Assembly (NCBI RefSeq): GCF_003019035.1
Contig: NZ_CP027447.1
Source: Escherichia coli
Lineage (GTDB): Bacteria > Pseudomonadota > Gammaproteobacteria > Enterobacterales > Enterobacteriaceae
Strand: one strand, 5' to 3'
DNA length: 64,000 nucleotides
A model generated the notes under the pieces. That model made no database searches. It saw nothing but the letters and a program-made list of their open reading frames with translations, and was not told the origin of the DNA. A program made the translations under genes and the position numbers. This document shows, in pieces, positions 3,951 through 31,809 of the stretch. Within the stretch, counting starts at the first letter, position 1. Each line of letters opens with the position of its first letter.

Positions 3951-4880
3951 ATGCAAAACGCAGGCAGCCTCGTTGTTCTTGGCAGCATTAATGCTGACCA
4001 CATTCTTAATCTTCAATCTTTTCCTACCCCAGGCGAAACCGTAACCGGTAACCACTATCAGGTTGCATTTGGCGGCAAAGGCGCGAATCAGGCTGTGGCT
4101 GCTGGGCGTAGCGGTGCGAATATCGCGTTTATTGCCTGTACGGGTGATGACAGTATTGGTGAGAGCGTTCGCCAGCAGCTCGCCACTGATAACATCGATA
4201 TTTCTCCGGTCAGCGTGATCAAAGGCGAATCAACAGGTGTGGCGCTGATTTTTGTTAATGGCGAAGGTGAGAATGTCATTGGTATTCATGCCGGCGCTAA
4301 TGCTGCCCTTTCCCCTGCGCTGGTGGAAGCGCAACGTGAGCGTATTGCCAACGCGTCAGCATTATTAATGCAGCTGGAATCACCACTCAAAAGTGTGATG
4401 GCAGCGGCGAAAATCGCCCATCAAAATAAGACTATCGTTGCGCTTAACCCGGCTCCGGCTCGCGAACTTCCTGACGAACTGCTGGCGCTGGTGGACATTA
4501 TTACGCCAAACGAAACGGAAGCAGAAAAGCTCACCGGTATTCGTGTTGAAAATGATGAAGATGCAGCGAAGGCGGCGCAGGTACTGCATGAAAAAGGTAT
4601 CCGTACTGTACTGATTACTTTAGGAAGTCGTGGTGTATGGGCTAGCGTGAATGGTGAAGGTCAGCGCGTTCCTGGATTCCGGGTGCAGGCTGTCGATACC
4701 ATTGCTGCCGGAGATACTTTTAACGGCGCGTTAATCACGGCGTTGCTGGAAGAAAAAACATTGCCAGAGGCGATTCGTTTTGCCCATGCCGCCGCTGCGA
4801 TTGCCGTAACACGTAAAGGCGCACAACCTTCCGTACCGTGGCGTGAAGAGATCGACGCATTTTTAGACAGGCAGAGGTGA
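3951..4880 (+). CDS. rbsK: ribokinase (PfkB family)
   Basis: ORF track begins at 3924; recalled RbsK begins MQNAGSLVVLGS, which is the internal ATG at 3951; GG and AAGD kinase motifs present. Confidence 0.92.
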   Translation: MQNAGSLVVLGSINADHILNLQSFPTPGETVTGNHYQVAFGGKGANQAVAAGRSGANIAFIACTGDDSIGESVRQQLATDNIDISPVSVIKGESTGVALIFVNGEGENVIGIHAGANAALSPALVEAQRERIANASALLMQLESPLKSVMAAAKIAHQNKTIVALNPAPARELPDELLALVDIITPNETEAEKLTGIRVENDEDAAKAAQVLHEKGIRTVLITLGSRGVWASVNGEGQRVPGFRVQAVDTIAAGDTFNGALITALLEEKTLPEAIRFAHAAAAIAVTRKGAQPSVPWREEIDAFLDRQR

Positions 4881-5876: not shown

Positions 5877-7269
5877 ATTTACGCTGTCTTTTGATCAAAT
5901 TATTACCATCGGTTGTTTTCAGAAGCATGAACATTGCTGCTGAAGCAACAGTAATAATGCCCATCGTGATAAACGTATAGTGGAATTGTTCGACAGTCGT
6001 TGTGCCTTCCATCCCTTCATAAACGCGAAGGACGGCCGCACTTACAGCAACGCCTAAACTGATAGACAGTTGCTGCGTGACCGCCAGAACACTGTTACCG
6101 CTGCTGGCGTTGTCATCGGTCAGATCGGCAAGTGTGATGGTATTCATCGCGGTAAATTGCGTCGACATAGCCATCCCTAATATAAACAACGGCAAGATCA
6201 GCATCCATATCGCCATTGCCGGTGATTGCAAAGAGAACTGAGCGATCATTAGCCCAATAATCACCGTGATCCCAACTAACGTATGGCGATAGCCCAGACG
6301 ACGTAAGACTTGGGTAACCATCGATTTTGCAATAATGGAACCTAACGCTGTCGGTGCCATCATACAGCCGGCAATAAACGCCTGATAACCAAATCCTACC
6401 TGTAACATCAATGGCATAAGGAACGGTACACAACCGGTCCCCAGACGGGTTGCAATATTGCCTACGATACCGATCGAGAAAGTGCGGGTTTTAAATAAAT
6501 CTAATGAAATTAATGGGTTTGGCGTGCGTCGTGCATGGAGAATATAGAGAAGCAGTAACCCGATGCTGGTGACAATTACCGTCAAGGCAATCCAACTGGC
6601 GACAATCTTTTCCCCAAATAGCTCTATTCCGCTTGAGAAGAGAACAAGGCTAAGGCCAAACAGCAAAAAGCCAGTGATATCGAATCTGCGTCGTGCGGTG
6701 GTGAAATTGGGCATATGTTTGCGCGCGTAAAGAAGGCCCGCAATACCTATGGGGATATTGATTAAAAATATCCAGTGCCAGGTTGCCCAGGTGACCAGCA
6801 CGCCGCCAAGAACGGGGCCTAAAATTGGCCCCACCAGACCCGGCATGGCGACAAAATTCAATACAGGAAGAAGCTCATTACGAGGATAAGCGCGCAGTAA
6901 GGCCAGCCGAGCAACAGGCATCATCATTGCGCCGCCTATCCCCTGAATAACCCGGAAGACAACCAGCTGTGGTAGCGAGTTAGAAAGTGCGCAGGCCAGA
7001 GAACCCAACGTGAACAGACTCACGGCAAGGGTAAATATGCGACGCGTACCGAAGCGATCGGCTAGCCATCCGCTTACCGGAATAAGCATCGCCACCGTCA
7101 GCGTATAACTGATGATGGCTGATTGCATCGCGAGAGGAGAACGATTAAGGCTATGAGCGATTGCGGGTAAGGCGGTATTCAGAATAGTGGCATCAAGTGC
7201 CTGCATGAAGAAGGCCATCGCCGCGATCCACGGCAAACCCGCCATACTGCGCTTCTTTTTATCGCTCAT
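5842..7269 (-). CDS. hsrA: MFS family efflux transporter
   Basis: 475 aa multi-helix membrane protein; position between rbsR and yieP matches hsrA (yieO); 3' end overlaps rbsR convergently. Confidence 0.85.
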
Positions 7270-7291
7270 TCAATGTCCTGTTATCGGGGTG

Positions 7292-7984
7292 TCACTTATC
7301 AGGTGAGCGTAGCAGCGCCTGACAAGCTTTAAATGCCGCGTCGCCATCGCTTTGGATAATCGCGTCAACAATCGCCTGGTGCAGATCCAGCTTTATCACT
7401 GTGTCGCTGGTAATTGACGTGAAGTAAGTGTGATAAACCGAATGGAATAGCGAGGCGAATGAGGTCAAAAACGGATTGGCGCTCATTTCATAGATATGCT
7501 CATGCCAGGCCATATCGACTTCGATCCAGCGTTCACGGCGAAAGTTCTCTTTTAATGCCGCCATTTCGGCCATTAACGTATTGAGATGCGCCTTCTGTTC
7601 CGCGGTGCCAACCGTTGCTGCCAGTAGGCAAGCTTGCGGCTCCAGACAGATACGCATAACCAGAAAGTGATCGATGACCTGATGAAAGTTCTCTTCTGTC
7701 ATCCACCAGGTAAGCAATTCCTGATCAAGAAAATTCCAGTTTGATTGTGGCATGACCCGGGTACCAATTCGCGGTCGCGGTAAAACCATCCCTTTTGCCG
7801 TTAACGTTTTGACCGCTTCGCGTACCGCTGTACGACTCACTCCAAATTGCTCGCCCAGCTCAATCTCACCAGGCAAAATGGTGCCGGGTTCATATTCACC
7901 TTTTAAGATGCGTTGCGCCAGCTTCTCAGCCAGAACATACGAAAGGTTTTTCTGTGCAGCTAACTGTTGTGCGCTTAAAGGCAT
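7292..7984 (-). CDS. yieP: GntR/FadR family transcriptional regulator
   Basis: 230 aa; N-terminal winged helix motif (GEQFGVSRTAVREAVKTL); position immediately upstream of the rRNA operon. Confidence 0.85.
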   Translation of the reverse strand: MPLSAQQLAAQKNLSYVLAEKLAQRILKGEYEPGTILPGEIELGEQFGVSRTAVREAVKTLTAKGMVLPRPRIGTRVMPQSNWNFLDQELLTWWMTEENFHQVIDHFLVMRICLEPQACLLAATVGTAEQKAHLNTLMAEMAALKENFRRERWIEVDMAWHEHIYEMSANPFLTSFASLFHSVYHTYFTSITSDTVIKLDLHQAIVDAIIQSDGDAAFKACQALLRSPDK

Positions 7985-26932: not shown

Positions 26933-27871
26933 TTACTGTAATTGAGTTTGCTGGATCAAGATTTCAACTTGTGACTGGCGAGGAATGGGGGCAACTGCGC
27001 CATAACCGGTTGTTGTCAGCGCAGCGGCGGCGTTGGCGTAGCACAGCGCCTCTTCCGGCGAATCACCTTTGATAATGCGGTAAAGAAAAGCACCCGAGAA
27101 GCAGTCCCCAGCCCCGGTCGCGTCGACGGTGGCGACTTTATGGCCAGAGTAGATGATTCGCCTGTTCTCATTGGCGAACATCGCGCCTTCCGCACCCATT
27201 TTTAACACCACATTCTTTGCCCCGAGCTGGAGATAGAAATCCGTAATTTCATCTGCATGATGCTTCCCGGTTAGCAAACGGGCCTCATCGAGGCTAGGCA
27301 TGCAGTAATCTACGTGGCGTATTGTTTCATGGATGATGGCGCGGGCGCGGGCTAACGGCCACAGTTTGAGCCGCAGATTGGTGTCGAAGGAAATCAGCGT
27401 TTGGTGCTTTTGGCACAGTTCAATAGCGTGAAAAAGCGCATCACTGACGTTATTGCCAATGGCGTGCGTGATGGCCGAACTGTGAAATAAGCGCGCGGCG
27501 GCAATCGCGGACTCATTGATATCATCGACCGTCATCGTAGAGGCCGCAGAGCCTTTACGATAAAAGGTAAAGTGGTGGCCTTGTTCATTGTGAGAAATAA
27601 AATAGATCCCCGTCGGGGCCATTTTATGCGTGCAAACCCATTGATGATCGACCTTTTCTTCATCCCATAATGCGCGGAATTTCTGCCCAAATATGTCGTC
27701 GCCAAGTCGGGTTAACATAGCAACTTTAGCGCCTTGTCGCGCCGCGCTAATGGCGAAATTCGATGTATCACCGCCAAATCCGCTGAGATAATGCTGCTCA
27801 GAATGCTCTGTGGGAAGCTGATTGAATTCAAAAAGCGGCTCACCAAATGAAAGAATATCGAACTGCTTCAT
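26933..27871 (-). CDS. PfkB family carbohydrate kinase, 2-dehydro-3-deoxygluconokinase-like (accessory cluster)
   Basis: ORF 26933..27904; likely start MKQFDIL at 27871, preceded by GGAGAA; PfkB motifs GG (SGFGGD) and VDATGAGDCFSGAF. Confidence 0.8.
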   Translation of the reverse strand: MKQFDILSFGEPLFEFNQLPTEHSEQHYLSGFGGDTSNFAISAARQGAKVAMLTRLGDDIFGQKFRALWDEEKVDHQWVCTHKMAPTGIYFISHNEQGHHFTFYRKGSAASTMTVDDINESAIAAARLFHSSAITHAIGNNVSDALFHAIELCQKHQTLISFDTNLRLKLWPLARARAIIHETIRHVDYCMPSLDEARLLTGKHHADEITDFYLQLGAKNVVLKMGAEGAMFANENRRIIYSGHKVATVDATGAGDCFSGAFLYRIIKGDSPEEALCYANAAAALTTTGYGAVAPIPRQSQVEILIQQTQLQ

Positions 27872-27936
27872 TACGTTCTCCATGTGATAGTCTAGGCTCG
27901 CCATCGGCCAGATTGGCTGATGGCGGCATAGGAAGG

Positions 27937-28593
27937 TTAGATTCGGCCGTATTTCGCCAGGCCTTCACGCAGAGAACCAGACTGTATAATCAGTTTGGCC
28001 TGTTCCAGCTCGCGGCTATCAATGGATTGTGCCAGTGCTAATACTTCTGCTGCGACCGCCTGCGGTACGCACACCACGCCGTCGATATCCCCGACAATCA
28101 AATCTCCCGGATTCACCGTGACATCGCCGATGGTGACGGGCTGATTGGCTGAAATTGTTTTGAAACGACCAAGCGTAGTGCCTGGGGTTACCGTTTTGGC
28201 GTAAACCGGGAAATCGTAATCGCGACGGATCTCCGCCAGGTCACGTACGCCGCCGTTCAACACTGCAGCTTCATGTTTATTGGCAACAGCCCCGGCGGTC
28301 ATTAGCCCGCCCCAGACGGCAACGGTTTCCAGCGACGGATTTCCGGTAATGACGATGACCGAACCGCTGGCGGATTCGTCAATGGCGTCCAGCGCATGCT
28401 GCGGTGGCAGTTTTTCGTCAGTGACGTCTTCATAAATGGTGACGGCCGGGCCAACGATTTTTTTGTCGTTGATGCGGTTTTTGATTTCAAAAGGCAGGAA
28501 CATCGTTTTGCCCAAGATCTGATCGCAGGCGTCAGCGACAGAAGCGGTCGAAAAAATAGTGCGAAAACCGTCGATAATATTTTTGCTGTACAT
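27937..28593 (-). CDS. RraA family protein, probable class II 4-hydroxy-2-oxoacid aldolase (accessory cluster)
   Basis: ORF track is N-extended; the internal start MYSKNIIDGF at 28593 has a GAGGAA ribosome-binding site; about 218 aa; family assigned by overall resemblance, not by search. Confidence 0.7.
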   Translation of the reverse strand: MYSKNIIDGFRTIFSTASVADACDQILGKTMFLPFEIKNRINDKKIVGPAVTIYEDVTDEKLPPQHALDAIDESASGSVIVITGNPSLETVAVWGGLMTAGAVANKHEAAVLNGGVRDLAEIRRDYDFPVYAKTVTPGTTLGRFKTISANQPVTIGDVTVNPGDLIVGDIDGVVCVPQAVAAEVLALAQSIDSRELEQAKLIIQSGSLREGLAKYGRI

Positions 28594-28624
28594 AACTCTT
28601 CCTCTCTTTATAGCGAATACTAAT

Positions 28625-29584
28625 TTATGGATTAACCCAATTAAGCGGATGCTCGCCTTCAAACGCCCGACGCACTTCATGCGCGGCTTTACTTTGCAAC
28701 TCGACCACCGACTCTTCGGTAAACCAGGCGGTGTGGTCCGTACATAAGGTGTTATCCATTTGCAGCAATGGACTTTTTGCACTGAGGGGTTCGGATTCAA
28801 AAACGTCGAGTCCGGCGGCGAAAATGCGCTTTTGTAGCAGGGCGTTGATCAGCGCCTGCTCATCGATAAGCCCGCCGCGTGAGGTATTGACCAGTACGGC
28901 GCTGGGCTTCATTTTGGCCAGTTCGGCTTCACCGATAAGATGATGGGTGTCCGGGGTTAGCGGGGCGTGAAGAGAAATGAAGTCCGCTTCACGGCACAGC
29001 GTATCGAGATTGACTCGCGTCACGCCTGCTTGTGAAGCCTGTTCATCGGTAAGTAGCGGATCAACTACCAGGATGCGCTTAAAGCCGAACCCTGATGCTT
29101 TTTGTACAAAGCAGCGGGAGATCCGGCCAAAACCGACGACGCCGAGAATTTTTCCCGCCAAGCGGAACATAGGTTCGCGCTGGCCAATTCCCCACTGACC
29201 ATCGCGAACATCACGGTTGCGGGTGGCGATACGGCGTGTTGCGGCCAGTAGTAACGCCAGAGCGTGCTCAGCAACATCTTCCGAGCCGTAGTCTGGTACG
29301 TTAGCGACGTAAATACCTTTTTCTTTGGCGGCCTGGCTATCGATATTGTCTACACCGACGCCATAGCGCACGATAACGCGGCATTGCTGCATCGCTTCAA
29401 TCATAGGGCGACTGACGGTTGCTTCGCGGACCATGATGGCGTCAGCATTGCTTACCTGGCGCAGTTTTTCTTCCAGTGAAGCGTTTGCTGGAACAACAAC
29501 AAACTGCGGATCCCAATCCTGTAAAATATTTTCTTCTGCAGAATAATTTAAATATCCAGGTTCAATAACTACTATTTTCTTCAT
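28625..29584 (-). CDS. D-isomer-specific 2-hydroxyacid dehydrogenase, NAD-binding (accessory cluster)
   Basis: 319 aa; Rossmann motif GVVGFGRIS; family resemblance to glycerate/hydroxypyruvate reductases. Confidence 0.8.
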   Translation of the reverse strand: MKKIVVIEPGYLNYSAEENILQDWDPQFVVVPANASLEEKLRQVSNADAIMVREATVSRPMIEAMQQCRVIVRYGVGVDNIDSQAAKEKGIYVANVPDYGSEDVAEHALALLLAATRRIATRNRDVRDGQWGIGQREPMFRLAGKILGVVGFGRISRCFVQKASGFGFKRILVVDPLLTDEQASQAGVTRVNLDTLCREADFISLHAPLTPDTHHLIGEAELAKMKPSAVLVNTSRGGLIDEQALINALLQKRIFAAGLDVFESEPLSAKSPLLQMDNTLCTDHTAWFTEESVVELQSKAAHEVRRAFEGEHPLNWVNP

Positions 29585-29699
29585 AATATCTACCGTTCTT
29601 AATTATAAAATTAAGTGTTTTAATTTCTACGGCTGTAGTTCGCCGCATCCTGAAAACAGAATGTGAAATTAATGAATGTTTTGTTTGTGGTTTATATCA

Positions 29700-31037
29700 T
29701 CACAGAGTAACGGGTTTGGCGTCCACGATAGCTATATTCTTTAACCAGCGGACAATTAATATTGTGACGATCCCGCCGATTAGCATAACCGCGCTTAAAT
29801 ATAACATCGGTGCCGAGTCGCTTTTTTCTAAATCACGTACCAGAGGGATGGTGTTTTGCGCGAAAAACCCCCCCAGATTTGCCAGTGAATTAATAATAGC
29901 AATGCCTGCAGCCGCCGTTGCGCCTGAAAGAAATTTCGTTAAATTCCAGAAGCAGGGTTGAATTGCAAATACTGATAATACAACGCCGCAAATACAGATG
30001 AAGCTAATAACCGGCTGGGCGAATGTCCAGACCGAGAGCAGCAGACATATTGCAGCGGTGAACATAGGTAATGCGACATTAATATAAGGATTCTCGGTAC
30101 GTTCTGGCTTACTGGTTATCCAGCGCAGCATGATGATAACCATCGCCCATGGGATCATATTGACCAGACCATTCATCATATCCGAGGCACCGAACGTTTT
30201 AACAATAGTTGGCATCCAGTAGCTGATACCGTAGGCACCAAAGCAGATGAACCCGTATACCAGCGCGAGGGCCAGAACACGCCAGTCGGTCAGCGATTTA
30301 CCCAGGCTATTGACCGATTTATCGGTGTTGGCATCCTGTTCGGCGGCCAGTTTTTTAATCAACCAGCTCTTCTCTTCCGCATTCAAGAAGCGAGCCTGTT
30401 CCGGTCCTTGCGGAAACCATAGCAGCACTGGGGCAATCAGCAGAAGTGCAAGCACCCCCGTCGCCAGGAATAACCACTGCCATCCTTCCAGCCCCATAAA
30501 GCCGTGCATGCTAAGCAGTGAGCCGTTAATTGGGGCACCAATCATATTTGCCACCATGCTGGCGGTGACTAAAAAGCCGACAATACGTGGACGATACTTT
30601 AAAGGGAACCATTTGGTAGAATAGTAAATTAGCCCAGGGTAAAAGCTGGCTTCGGCAACACCAAGAATAAAACGCAAAGTATAAAATGTTGACATTTTTT
30701 CGGTCCACGCCAGCGCCATAGTAATAACTCCCCATGACAACAGGCTAATAGTGAACCAGCGTTTAGCACCTACCTTCGATAAAATTAAATTTCCGGGAAC
30801 GCTAAAAACCAAATAACCGATGAAAAAAAGTGATGCGCCGAGGCCAAAAGCTGCTTCACTCCAGCCCAGGCTGTCTACCATTTGTAATTTAGCAAAACTG
30901 ATATTCTGACGATCTATATACGCCACGATGTACATCAATACCATCAGTGGAACAAGTTTCCTGGTTGTTTTTGTTACAATGATTTTTTCTAAATCATTTT
31001 TTGCATCCAGGGACTGTTGCTGTATTGAATGACTCAT
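29700..31037 (-). CDS. MFS transporter, anion:cation symporter-like (accessory cluster)
   Basis: ORF 29700..31103; likely start MSHSIQQQ at 31037; about 12 predicted helices; motif YIDRQNISFAK typical of organic-acid and sugar-acid permeases. Confidence 0.8.
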   Translation of the reverse strand: MSHSIQQQSLDAKNDLEKIIVTKTTRKLVPLMVLMYIVAYIDRQNISFAKLQMVDSLGWSEAAFGLGASLFFIGYLVFSVPGNLILSKVGAKRWFTISLLSWGVITMALAWTEKMSTFYTLRFILGVAEASFYPGLIYYSTKWFPLKYRPRIVGFLVTASMVANMIGAPINGSLLSMHGFMGLEGWQWLFLATGVLALLLIAPVLLWFPQGPEQARFLNAEEKSWLIKKLAAEQDANTDKSVNSLGKSLTDWRVLALALVYGFICFGAYGISYWMPTIVKTFGASDMMNGLVNMIPWAMVIIMLRWITSKPERTENPYINVALPMFTAAICLLLSVWTFAQPVISFICICGVVLSVFAIQPCFWNLTKFLSGATAAAGIAIINSLANLGGFFAQNTIPLVRDLEKSDSAPMLYLSAVMLIGGIVTILIVRWLKNIAIVDAKPVTL

Positions 31038-31161
31038 AACACGTGTTTCCTGAATAAAGTCATAAGATCTGGCGCTCGTCCTCACACCATTGCACGGAGA
31101 CAAGATTTTGTCTGCATAGAGACGCCGTTGTTTTAGCCAGTTGAGATATTATTACCTAAAC

Positions 31162-31412
31162 TGACATGTCACAAAGATATCACTCATTTTTTATGTGGCG
31201 ACAGGATGTGTAAAAACTTGCCGCTTTGATCACAATTAATGGCGATAAAAGTGCTTTTTAGTGTGATGCTTGTCACTAAAAAATGGGATGAATAATCTTT
31301 TTTGACATGTCAGATTTGGGGTTTGTGAATGCAATAAATCACACTGTTGCAGTGGGTTGGCGCGTTAATCATGGAATAAAGGATATTTTTTTATAACTAA
31401 CATGTCAGATTG
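31162..31412. promoter_or_regulatory. leader of the accessory cluster with three copies of the palindromic motif ACATGTCA (two are the perfect 10-mer TGACATGTCA)
   Basis: TGACATGTCA at 31162-31171 and 31303-31312; TAACATGTCAGATT at 31399-31412; all upstream of the MFS start at 31037. Confidence 0.5.
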
Positions 31413-31441
31413 TGGCCCTTGTCAGGAAAGGGCCAGCCTGA

Positions 31442-31771
<330 letters not shown>

Positions 31772-31809
31772 TTATTTTCCCCTCCCGACTTTCATTGAGC
31801 GATTTTCCT

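What the first reader, a model, noticed from the sequence alone, without database searches (positions are those of the whole stretch)
27937..28593. RraA-family protein in a catabolic operon, likely an aldolase rather than an RNase E regulator
The 218 aa product resembles the RraA family, which includes both the RNase E inhibitor RraA and metal-dependent 4-hydroxy-2-oxoacid aldolases or decarboxylases. Being sandwiched between a kinase and a dehydrogenase under a GntR regulator favours an enzymatic role. If so, this pathway uses a non-canonical aldolase for a sugar-acid route.
Basis: inference. Interest (0 to 1): 0.45.

Follow-up and report, generated by a model that had tools for sequence, protein, structure and literature searches.

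The report
RraA-fold enzyme in acid-sugar operon
The gene is real and almost certainly encodes a metal-dependent enzyme, not the RNase E regulator RraA; it always sits with a dehydrogenase and a sugar-acid kinase in a widespread, uncharacterised catabolic operon, but "aldolase" is only the leading guess.

Summary
Window 27937-28593 (minus strand) is an intact 218-aa RraA-like gene (Pfam E 5.5e-32). It lies in a 5.4-kb island encoding an MFS transporter, a D-2-hydroxyacid dehydrogenase, the RraA-like protein, a PfkB kinase and a GntR regulator. The island replaces the 86-bp ilvC-ppiC spacer and occurs in only 31 of 5426 complete E. coli genomes.

The protein is not the RNase E regulator. A genome with the identical island keeps canonical rraA, to which it is 25% identical. 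It also has the catalytic Arg-Asp pair, acidic metal ligands and C-terminal helix of active HMG/CHA-aldolase-type enzymes, invariant in 23 orthologues.

In 56 well-flanked loci from alpha-, beta- and gamma-proteobacteria, the dehydrogenase (54) and kinase (55) nearly always accompany it. A genuine Eda (KDPG/KHG) aldolase co-occurs in 19 of 56 and shares the operator in Pantoea rwandensis. So it does not simply replace the canonical aldolase.

Best reading: a Mg2+-dependent 2-oxo-acid lyase acting on the 2-oxo acid made by the dehydrogenase and phosphorylated by the kinase. This is most likely a retro-aldol cleavage (about 0.4). Dehydratase or decarboxylase roles remain open, and the substrate is unknown.

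The parts
27937..28593 (-). RraA-like (HMG/CHA-aldolase fold) gene, 218 aa. Carries the motif G96-X20-R117-D118-X2-E121, plus E195 and an invariant C-terminal tail GSLREGLAKYGRI.
28625..29584 (-). D-isomer-specific 2-hydroxyacid dehydrogenase (PGAP name 'C-terminal binding protein'), 319 aa, 31 nt upstream of the RraA-like gene. Present in 54 of 56 well-flanked orthologous loci.
26933..27904 (-). PfkB-family acid-sugar kinase. The longest ORF starts at 27904; the RefSeq start is 27871. Its closest solved relatives are archaeal and Thermus 2-keto-3-deoxygluconate kinases, and it is 26% identical to E. coli KdgK. Present in 55 of 56 loci.
29700..31085 (-). MFS transporter of the anion:cation symporter (D-galactonate transporter) subfamily. 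In most other taxa a TRAP system takes its place.
26130..26789 (-). GntR/FCD-family transcription regulator. RefSeq start is 26768.
31162..31171 (.). Operator-like palindrome TGACATGTCA, copy 1, upstream of the transporter gene.
31303..31312 (.). Operator-like palindrome TGACATGTCA, copy 2.
31398..31407 (.). Operator-like palindrome TAACATGTCA, copy 3.
27892..27931 (-). Stable hairpin just downstream of the RraA-like stop codon; it lies within the longest kinase ORF but upstream of the RefSeq kinase start. Minimum free energy -24.4 kcal/mol for the 80-nt stretch 27866-27945, z = -3.3.
26046..31440 (.). The whole accessory island. It replaces the 86-bp ilvC-ppiC spacer of K-12.

Best explanation
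The product is a catalytically competent, divalent-metal-dependent 2-oxo-acid lyase with the RraA/HMG-CHA-aldolase fold. It is the invariant partner of a D-2-hydroxyacid dehydrogenase and a KDG-kinase-like PfkB kinase in a GntR-controlled acid-sugar catabolic operon.

Proposed sequence of events (inferred):
1. An organic acid sugar is imported, by MFS here and by TRAP or ABC systems elsewhere.
2. The dehydrogenase converts its 2-hydroxy group to the 2-oxo group. Every characterised RraA-like enzyme needs this group to chelate Mg2+.
3. The kinase phosphorylates the terminal hydroxyl.
4. The RraA-like enzyme binds the 2-oxo-acid through Mg2+ (D118, E121, E195'). It stabilises the enolate with R117 and cleaves C3-C4 by retro-aldol. 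The products are pyruvate, or hydroxypyruvate if C3 carries OH, plus a triose phosphate.

Shown here: the family, the fold, the intact catalytic motif, the operon, its conservation and the shared operator. Inferred: the substrate class, the order of steps and the reaction type.

I put about 0.9 on 'enzyme, not RNase E regulator' and about 0.4 on retro-aldol cleavage as the reaction.
For: - Pfam RraA-like, E 5.5e-32.
- Mapping to P. putida HMG/CHA aldolase 3NOJ: R123->R117, D124->D118, E199->E195, G101->G95, H75->H66, G144/T145->G138/T139-T140. D102 is replaced by G96, with E121 completing the alternative G-X20-R-D-X2-E motif. PMC5065237 gives the roles of these residues. It also states that most homologues carry one of two motifs needed for metal binding and catalysis, and so probably act as class II pyruvate aldolases.
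- All of these residues are invariant in 23 orthologues at 65-89% identity.
- E. coli RraA has R-Q at the R-D position and is 25% identical. A genome with the identical island retains rraA.
- Foldseek groups the model with long-form enzymes.
- Synteny: dehydrogenase in 54/56 loci and kinase in 55/56. Sister clades at 48-50% identity keep an oxidoreductase-RraA-PfkB order, with an SDR in place of the 2-hydroxyacid dehydrogenase.
- The kinase is closest to KDG kinases.
- The operator TRACATGTCA occurs three times upstream here (expected 0.29 per window) and is conserved in Pantoea, Klebsiella and Vibrio loci.
- No canonical sugar-acid dehydratase recurs in the 80 loci. A 2-oxo acid made by the dehydrogenase is therefore the simplest substrate.
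Against: - A genuine Eda aldolase sits in the same cluster in 27/80 loci (19/56 well-flanked). It never replaces the RraA-like gene, and it shares the operator in Pantoea rwandensis. Two aldolases in one pathway need a special explanation.
- A KduD-like SDR plus a Cupin_7 protein (34-36 of 56) and a periplasmic beta-propeller (37 of 56) have no firm role in the scheme.
- FlDet, another family member in a sugar-acid route, is a dehydratase/decarboxylase and not an aldolase.
- No substrate or activity data exist. All NCBIfam scores are below the curated cutoffs.
- The model's active-site loops have low confidence: pLDDT < 50 at residues 94-102 and 131-142.
Confidence: 0.4

Rival explanations
1. 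It is a sugar-acid dehydratase (beta-elimination). It would make the 2-keto-3-deoxy acid that the KDG-kinase-like PfkB phosphorylates and that Eda, cluster-encoded or housekeeping, then cleaves. The dehydrogenase, the SDR and the periplasmic beta-propeller lactonase-like protein would be feeders that convert keto-aldonates or lactones into the aldonate.
For: - Eda co-occurs and shares the operator in one Pantoea locus.
- No enolase-superfamily, IlvD/Edd, UxuA or UxaA dehydratase recurs in any of the 80 loci. Even so, the kinase and Eda imply a 2-keto-3-deoxy intermediate.
- FlDet shows that the RraA fold can dehydrate a sugar acid.
- The dgo-like layout (GntR regulator, kinase, MFS) otherwise lacks a dehydratase.
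Against: - All characterised family members act on 2-oxo acids through C3 enolisation. Dehydrating a 2-hydroxy acid would be new chemistry for this fold.
- The dehydrogenase is as conserved as the kinase (54/56) and far more conserved than Eda (19/56). That is odd for a mere feeder.
- E. coli already has KdgK, yet the island keeps its own kinase, only 26% identical to it.
Confidence: 0.18
2. It is a beta-decarboxylase of the oxaloacetate-decarboxylase type. It would act on a 2-oxo acid with a carboxylate on C3, produced by the dehydrogenase, making a two-enzyme 'malic-enzyme-like' step. For a branched 3-carboxy sugar acid this would yield KDG for the kinase and Eda.
For: [quoted passage not shown]
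- From my own knowledge of Mazurkewich et al. 2014, active RraA-like proteins with this motif also decarboxylate oxaloacetate.
- Dehydrogenase relatives such as McyI oxidise malate derivatives.
- This scheme would give every core enzyme, including Eda, its family-typical reaction.
Against: - I know of no natural 3-carboxy sugar acid that would fit.
- Plain C4 dicarboxylates (malate, tartrate) would leave the KDG-kinase-like kinase and the lactonase-like protein without a role.
Confidence: 0.1
3. It catalyses some other enolate-based reaction on the 2-oxo acid. Candidates are C3 epimerisation, 2-oxo/3-oxo isomerisation (OtnI-like), or retro-Claisen hydrolysis of a 2,4-dioxo acid made by an SDR (a FAH-hydrolase analogue).
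For: - HMG/CHA aldolase catalyses pyruvate C3-H exchange (PMC5065237).
- Sister clades place an SDR, not a 2-hydroxyacid dehydrogenase, directly upstream.
- NCBIfam holds FAH-RraA-like fusion models.
- C4-C6 acid-sugar routes that go oxidation, kinase, decarboxylase are known (PMC12994016).
Against: No family precedent for these reactions. No decarboxylase or hydrolase partner is conserved in the minimal E. coli island.
Confidence: 0.15
4. It is a non-catalytic RraA-type protein that regulates RNase E or another partner.
For: It shares the fold and Pfam family with RraA. Streptomyces RraAS2, a long-form member, is reported as an RNase inhibitor (PDB 5X15).
Against: - Canonical rraA is retained in the genome carrying the identical island.
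- It is 25% identical to RraA, and the RraA model scores 50 against a cutoff of 136.
- The catalytic motif that E. coli RraA lacks is intact and invariant.
- It shows strict operon linkage to catabolic genes in 80 loci.
Confidence: 0.04

Closest known systems
HMG/CHA aldolase (LigK/GalC/ProA; P. putida F1, PDB 3NOJ)
   Same: Same fold and Pfam family. The catalytic Arg-Asp pair, the Glu on the C-terminal helix, the Gly lining the pyruvate pocket, and the His and Gly-Thr of the phosphate site are all conserved. It is a long-form protein of about 220-240 aa.
   Different: About 22% identity. The TIGR02798 score is 83 against a cutoff of 304. It has the G-X20-R-D-X2-E motif rather than D-X20-R-D, and N71 is replaced by an invariant E60. 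There are no protocatechuate or gallate meta-cleavage neighbours. Instead it sits with a kinase, a 2-hydroxyacid dehydrogenase and an acid-sugar transporter.
Active RraA-like proteins with the G-X20-R-D-X2-E/D motif (T. thermophilus RraA 1J3L, yeast Yer010Cp 2C5Q)
   Same: Same motif type. From my own knowledge of Mazurkewich et al. 2014, cited as ref. 21 in PMC5065237, these proteins have HMG aldolase and oxaloacetate decarboxylase activity. Yer010Cp is also a long form (TM 0.68-0.71).
   Different: 21-23% identity. Those proteins have no known physiological substrate and no operon context like this one.
FlDet, the KDGR dehydratase/decarboxylase of Flavobacterium sp. UMI-01 (PMC8563752)
   Same: An RraA-family enzyme working in a sugar-acid (alginate-derived) catabolic route on a 2-keto-3-deoxy acid and activated by Mg2+. 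It is the one precedent I found for this family in sugar-acid metabolism.
   Different: 33% identity over 117 residues only. FlDet has D-X20-R-D. It acts on a non-phosphorylated dicarboxylate and feeds an aldehyde dehydrogenase. The present cluster has no aldehyde dehydrogenase but does have a kinase.
E. coli RraA (RNase E inhibitor, 161 aa)
   Same: Same Pfam family and core fold.
   Different: 25% identity over 129 residues. RraA has R-Q instead of R-D and lacks the C-terminal helix carrying the second metal ligand. It is encoded elsewhere in a genome carrying the identical island.
dgo (D-galactonate) and kgu (2-ketogluconate) operons
   Same: The island resembles dgoRKADT in having a GntR/FCD regulator, a kinase and an ACS-family MFS transporter. 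It resembles kguKTD in pairing a PfkB kinase with a D-2-hydroxyacid-dehydrogenase-family enzyme. These comparisons rest on my own knowledge of those operons; the family assignments are.
   Different: It has no enolase-superfamily dehydratase and no class I aldolase. An RraA-like protein occupies that place. The kinase is PfkB-type, not DgoK-type.

Membership tests
RraA-like / HMG-CHA aldolase superfamily (PF03737) | Significant match to the family profile | tested here: met
   PF03737, E 5.5e-32, model positions 1-151 of 152
RraA-like / HMG-CHA aldolase superfamily (PF03737) | [quoted passage not shown] | tested here: met
   AF2 model with pTM 0.80. All Foldseek matches with E <= 0.001 (26 chains) are RraA-family structures, with probability 1.00.
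Catalytically active RraA-like class II lyases | Arg that stabilises the enolate, followed by the Asp metal ligand (R123-D124 in 3NOJ) | tested here: met
   R117-D118, invariant in 23 orthologues. Residue roles from PMC5065237.
Catalytically active RraA-like class II lyases | A second acidic metal ligand set: either D-X20-R-D or G-X20-R-D-X2-E/D, plus the Glu of the C-terminal helix | tested here: met
   G96-X20-R117-D118-L-A-E121, and E195 aligned to E199. All are invariant. The wording of the motif is from my own knowledge of Mazurkewich 2014.
Catalytically active RraA-like class II lyases | Divalent-metal-dependent turnover of a 2-oxo acid | not testable with these tools
   Needs purified protein.
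HMG/CHA aldolase proper (LigK/GalC, TIGR02798 / NF006731) | Score above the curated equivalog cutoff | tested here: not met
   82.7 vs 304.5, and 81.6 vs 179
HMG/CHA aldolase proper (LigK/GalC, TIGR02798 / NF006731) | Protocatechuate/gallate 4,5-cleavage gene context | tested here: not met
   The neighbours are a kinase, a 2-hydroxyacid dehydrogenase, a transporter and a GntR regulator, here and across the 80 related loci.
RNase E regulator RraA (NF006875, TIGR02998) | Score above the curated cutoff; about 161 aa; sole orthologue at the menA-rraA locus | tested here: not met
   50.3 vs 136. 218 aa. Canonical rraA is present next to menA in a genome 100% identical over the island. 25% identity.
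RNase E regulator RraA (NF006875, TIGR02998) | Binds and inhibits RNase E | not testable with these tools
   Needs a binding or degradosome assay.
KDPG/KHG aldolase (Eda, TIGR01182) | Class I TIM-barrel aldolase homology | tested here: not met
   No match for the window protein. A true Eda is a separate gene in 27/80 related clusters.

The most novel reading that the evidence does not exclude
The dehydrogenase-RraA-like-PfkB triad would define a previously undescribed lower pathway for acid sugars, widespread in Proteobacteria. In it the RraA-fold enzyme does something no member is known to do. One option is cleaving a 2-keto-6-phospho-aldonate into hydroxypyruvate plus glyceraldehyde-3-phosphate. 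The other is acting as a new kind of (phospho)aldonate dehydratase that substitutes for the Edd-, UxuA- or enolase-type enzymes upstream of Eda.
Probability: 0.3. Interest if true: 0.7.

Novelty: new variant of a known kind. Interest (0 to 1): 0.5.

Why it matters
RraA-family genes are routinely annotated as 'ribonuclease regulator', 'demethylmenaquinone methyltransferase' or 'HMG aldolase'. Here is a well-defined subfamily that is none of these. It is 65-89% identical across the orthologues compared from alpha- and gamma-proteobacteria (about 60% in beta-proteobacteria) and is locked to a dehydrogenase and a kinase.

Assigning its reaction and substrate would:
- fill a gap in acid-sugar catabolism in marine Roseobacters, rhizobia, Pantoea, Vibrio and gut Succinivibrionaceae;
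- correct many annotations at once;
- explain what a rare horizontally acquired island adds to the nutrient range of some human- and animal-associated E. coli.

Tried and rejected
- **Literature.** Ten full-text searches (one was rejected for syntax) found no paper on this cluster. Only FlDet and the HMG/CHA aldolase papers were relevant.
- **Substrate from TRAP binding proteins.** The best solved relative of the cluster's DctP is 4P47, which is ligand-free. The next ones bind pantoate, erythronate, mannonate or KDG at roughly 35-40% similarity, which is not diagnostic.
- **Annotated plasmid copies** (Polaromonas JS666, R. etli, Pantoea) carry only generic names.
- **Defence-system models:** no hits.
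- **Gene fusions as Rosetta stones.** I found only tandem RraA-RraA proteins and one 890-aa secreted protein with weak beta-helix matches. Its N-terminal part has no solved relative.
- **Specific substrates considered and not adopted**, because each leaves a conserved gene unexplained or lacks the needed chemistry: ascorbate/2,3-diketogulonate, hexuronates via an Ashwell-like route, tartrate, pantoate, KDO, 3-deoxy-hexonates, sulfonates. The sulfonate idea came from NitT/TauT-type ABC transporters in sister clusters.
- **Closest solved structure.** 5IR2 is deposited as a 'cellulase'. I did not take that label as evidence of function.

Full report
**1.

On the minus strand an ORF runs from ATG 28593 to the stop ending at 27937 (218 codons). 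A purine-rich Shine-Dalgarno-like stretch lies just upstream. The longer TTG-initiated 287-aa ORF in the mechanical list overlaps the upstream gene and is not the likely product.

The window is E. coli chromosome. A 5.5-kb query spanning the island is 100% identical to strain SCU-301, where RefSeq calls the same CDS 'RraA family protein'. Pfam RraA-like matches with E = 5.5e-32.

All lie on the minus strand in one tightly spaced series:

| Gene | Window coordinates |
|---|---|
| MFS transporter | 29700-31085 |
| D-2-hydroxyacid dehydrogenase | 28625-29584 |
| RraA-like | 27937-28593 |
| PfkB kinase | 26933-27871/27904 |
| GntR/FCD regulator | 26130-26768/26789 |

**2. The genomic setting is a rare island.**

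Homology to K-12 stops exactly at the ilvC stop codon (26045) and resumes at the ppiC stop (31441). So 5,395 bp replace the 86-bp spacer of K-12. Only 31 of 5426 complete E. coli genomes carry most of the query.

The window is 98.0% identical to K-12 overall. The segments touching the island (ilvY-ilvC and ppiC) are only about 95% identical. That suggests the island arrived by homologous recombination together with some flanking DNA.

Klebsiella spallanzanii has the island at the same ilvC-ppiC site. There the island is 93% identical in nucleotides, against 82-88% for the flanks.

**3. It is an enzyme-type RraA-like protein, not the regulator.**

Every NCBIfam hit is below its curated cutoff. 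The RraA regulator model scores 50 against a cutoff of 136, and the LigK/GalC aldolase model 83 against 304. The best hit is an uncharacterised subfamily, PRK06201.

The closest solved structures, from sequence search and Foldseek on the AF2 model:

| Structure | Deposited name | Identity |
|---|---|---|
| 3K4I | uncharacterised protein | 29-30% |
| 5IR2 | 'cellulase' | 30% |
| 2C5Q | yeast Yer010Cp | 21-23% |
| 3NOJ | HMG/CHA aldolase | 22% |
| 5X15 | RraAS2 | 20-21% |

These long-form proteins superpose on the model with TM 0.65-0.73. The short RraA regulators give 0.42-0.47.

I aligned the protein to 3NOJ, taking residue roles from PMC5065237:

| 3NOJ residue | Role | This protein |
|---|---|---|
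| Arg-123 | essential; stabilises the enolate | R117 |
| Asp-124 | metal ligand | D118 |
| Glu-199 | metal ligand | E195 |
| Gly-101 | lines the pyruvate pocket | G95 |
| His-75 | phosphate site | H66 |
| Gly-144/Thr-145 | phosphate site | G138/T139-T140 |
| Asp-102 | acidic residue of the D-X20-R-D motif | G96, with E121 two residues after the R-D pair |

The last row gives the alternative motif G-X20-R-D-X2-E. From my own knowledge of Mazurkewich et al. 2014, T. thermophilus RraA and yeast Yer010Cp carry this motif and are active aldolase/decarboxylases. [quoted passage not shown]

All of these residues are invariant in 23 orthologues at 65-89% identity. So are a PGTTLGR loop and the last 13 residues.

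E. coli RraA is 25% identical and has R-Q at the R-D position. SCU-301, the genome 100% identical over the island, still has rraA next to menA.

**4. The operon is conserved and widespread.**

A scan of one genome per species found 190 species with a relative, and I examined 80 loci. They include Pantoea, Klebsiella, Vibrio, Photobacterium, Pseudovibrio, Succinivibrionaceae, many Roseobacters, Rhizobiaceae, Burkholderiales, Acetobacteraceae and Truepera.

Among 56 loci with at least 7 kb on both sides:

| Neighbour | Loci out of 56 |
|---|---|
| PfkB kinase | 55 |
| 2-hydroxyacid dehydrogenase | 54 |
| GntR regulator | 50 |
| TRAP transporter | 45 |
| MFS transporter | 9 |
| Periplasmic MRJP/SGL beta-propeller (lactonase-like, signal peptide) | 37 |
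| KduD-like SDR | 36 |
| Cupin_7 (DAD-family) protein, always with the SDR | 34 |
| Eda aldolase | 19 |

The Eda passes the TIGR01182 cutoff (196.6 vs 156). It is often directly next to the RraA-like gene.

Sister clades at 48-50% identity keep the order oxidoreductase-RraA-PfkB. There an SDR stands in place of the 2-hydroxyacid dehydrogenase, the transporter is a NitT/TauT-type ABC system, and a Cupin_7 gene is again present in one of them (L094). No canonical sugar-acid dehydratase recurs anywhere.

**5. Regulation.**

The 340 bp upstream of the transporter gene hold three copies of the palindrome T(G/A)ACATGTCA. The extended consensus is CTGACATGTCAG. These are the only matches in the whole 64-kb window, where chance predicts 0.29.

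The same motif sits in the corresponding regions of Klebsiella, Pantoea, Vibrio, Photobacterium, Pseudovibrio and Succinatimonas loci. In Pantoea rwandensis it also precedes a separate Eda-cupin-SDR operon and the beta-propeller gene. At least there, all these genes appear to belong to one regulon, most simply that of the cluster's GntR protein. The binding itself is inferred, not shown.

**6. What the protein most likely does.**

Every characterised member of the family works on a 2-oxo acid chelated to a divalent metal, through a C3 enolate (PMC5065237, PMC8563752). The near-obligate upstream partner here is a D-2-hydroxyacid dehydrogenase. Its relatives include phosphoglycerate dehydrogenases, glyoxylate/hydroxypyruvate reductases and 2-ketogluconate reductases. 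That is exactly the kind of enzyme that makes a 2-oxo acid.

The downstream partner is closest to archaeal and Thermus KDG kinases, and only 26% identical to E. coli KdgK. A phosphorylated 2-oxo acid sugar is therefore the most economical substrate. Retro-aldol cleavage into (hydroxy)pyruvate plus a triose phosphate is the most economical reaction. The invariant RraA-kinase pair then looks like the usual kinase-aldolase lower pathway.

I give this about 0.4.

**7. Why I am not more confident.**

Eda is never an alternative to the RraA-like gene. Where present it is an addition, and it shares the operator in one Pantoea locus.

- If the pathway ends in KDPG and Eda, the RraA-like enzyme must act earlier. 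The leading rival is then a dehydratase (about 0.18). FlDet is the precedent, and the absence of any other dehydratase is the main argument.
- A beta-decarboxylase (about 0.1) would suit the family chemistry, but I know of no natural substrate that fits.
- Epimerase, isomerase or retro-Claisen hydrolase roles (about 0.15 together) cannot be excluded.
- A non-catalytic regulator is unlikely (about 0.04).

Every concrete substrate I tried leaves at least one conserved gene unexplained. I therefore name only a substrate class: a C6-type aldonic or keto-aldonic acid, possibly delivered as a lactone.

**8. Novelty.**

I found no description of this cluster in the searchable literature. That library is incomplete, so this is weak evidence of absence.

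The fold, the family and the general operon logic are known. The subfamily, its fixed partnership with a dehydrogenase and a kinase, and its reaction are not. I file it as a new variant of a known kind, with interest about 0.5.

Noticed in passing
window 23534-26045 and 31441-31739: The DNA immediately flanking the island (ilvY-ilvC and ppiC) is about 95% identical to K-12, while the rest of the window is 98.0% identical. This suggests the island entered by homologous recombination together with donor flanks.
   Followed up: partly
window 31740-31793: The ppiC-rep spacer is only about 54 bp here. K-12 has about 830 bp at this position, including the yifN pseudogene.
   Followed up: no
window 27892-27931 (minus strand): A stable hairpin just downstream of the RraA-like stop codon: minimum free energy -24.4 kcal/mol for the 80-nt stretch folded, z = -3.3 against shuffles. 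It may be an mRNA-stability or processing element. It lies inside the longest kinase ORF but upstream of the RefSeq start.
   Followed up: partly
L014 (Pantoea rwandensis) 4006-4168 and 6846-7447: The same TRACATGTYA palindrome precedes a separate Eda-Cupin_7-SDR operon and the beta-propeller gene. This ties them to the operon that holds the RraA-like gene.
   Followed up: yes
L094, L100, L101, L088 (metagenome contigs): Some related clusters use a NitT/TauT-type ABC transporter (NMT1-family binding protein) with a conserved small membrane-like protein of about 110 aa. These are the sister clusters at 48-50% identity (L094, L100, L101) and one orthologous cluster (L088). In the sister clusters an SDR stands directly upstream in place of the 2-hydroxyacid dehydrogenase; in L088 an SDR lies downstream on the opposite strand. 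This transporter family often carries sulfonates, so a sulfonated or otherwise unusual acid cannot be excluded.
   Followed up: partly
P0167 (890 aa); P0130, P0133, P0140, P0157 (about 440 aa): Relatives include tandem RraA-RraA proteins. One is a secreted 890-aa protein with weak right-handed beta-helix and chondroitinase-B-like matches fused to a C-terminal RraA-like domain, 37% identical to the window protein. The N-terminal part has no solved relative.
   Followed up: partly
PDB 5IR2 (closest solved structure): The nearest solved relative is deposited and described as a 'cellulase' (HLB5 from Parabacteroides johnsonii), although it has the RraA fold. That functional label looks doubtful for this fold.
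   Followed up: no
L006 (Klebsiella spallanzanii): The same island sits at the same ilvC-ppiC site in another genus. It is 93% identical in nucleotides, against 82-88% for the flanks.
   Followed up: partly
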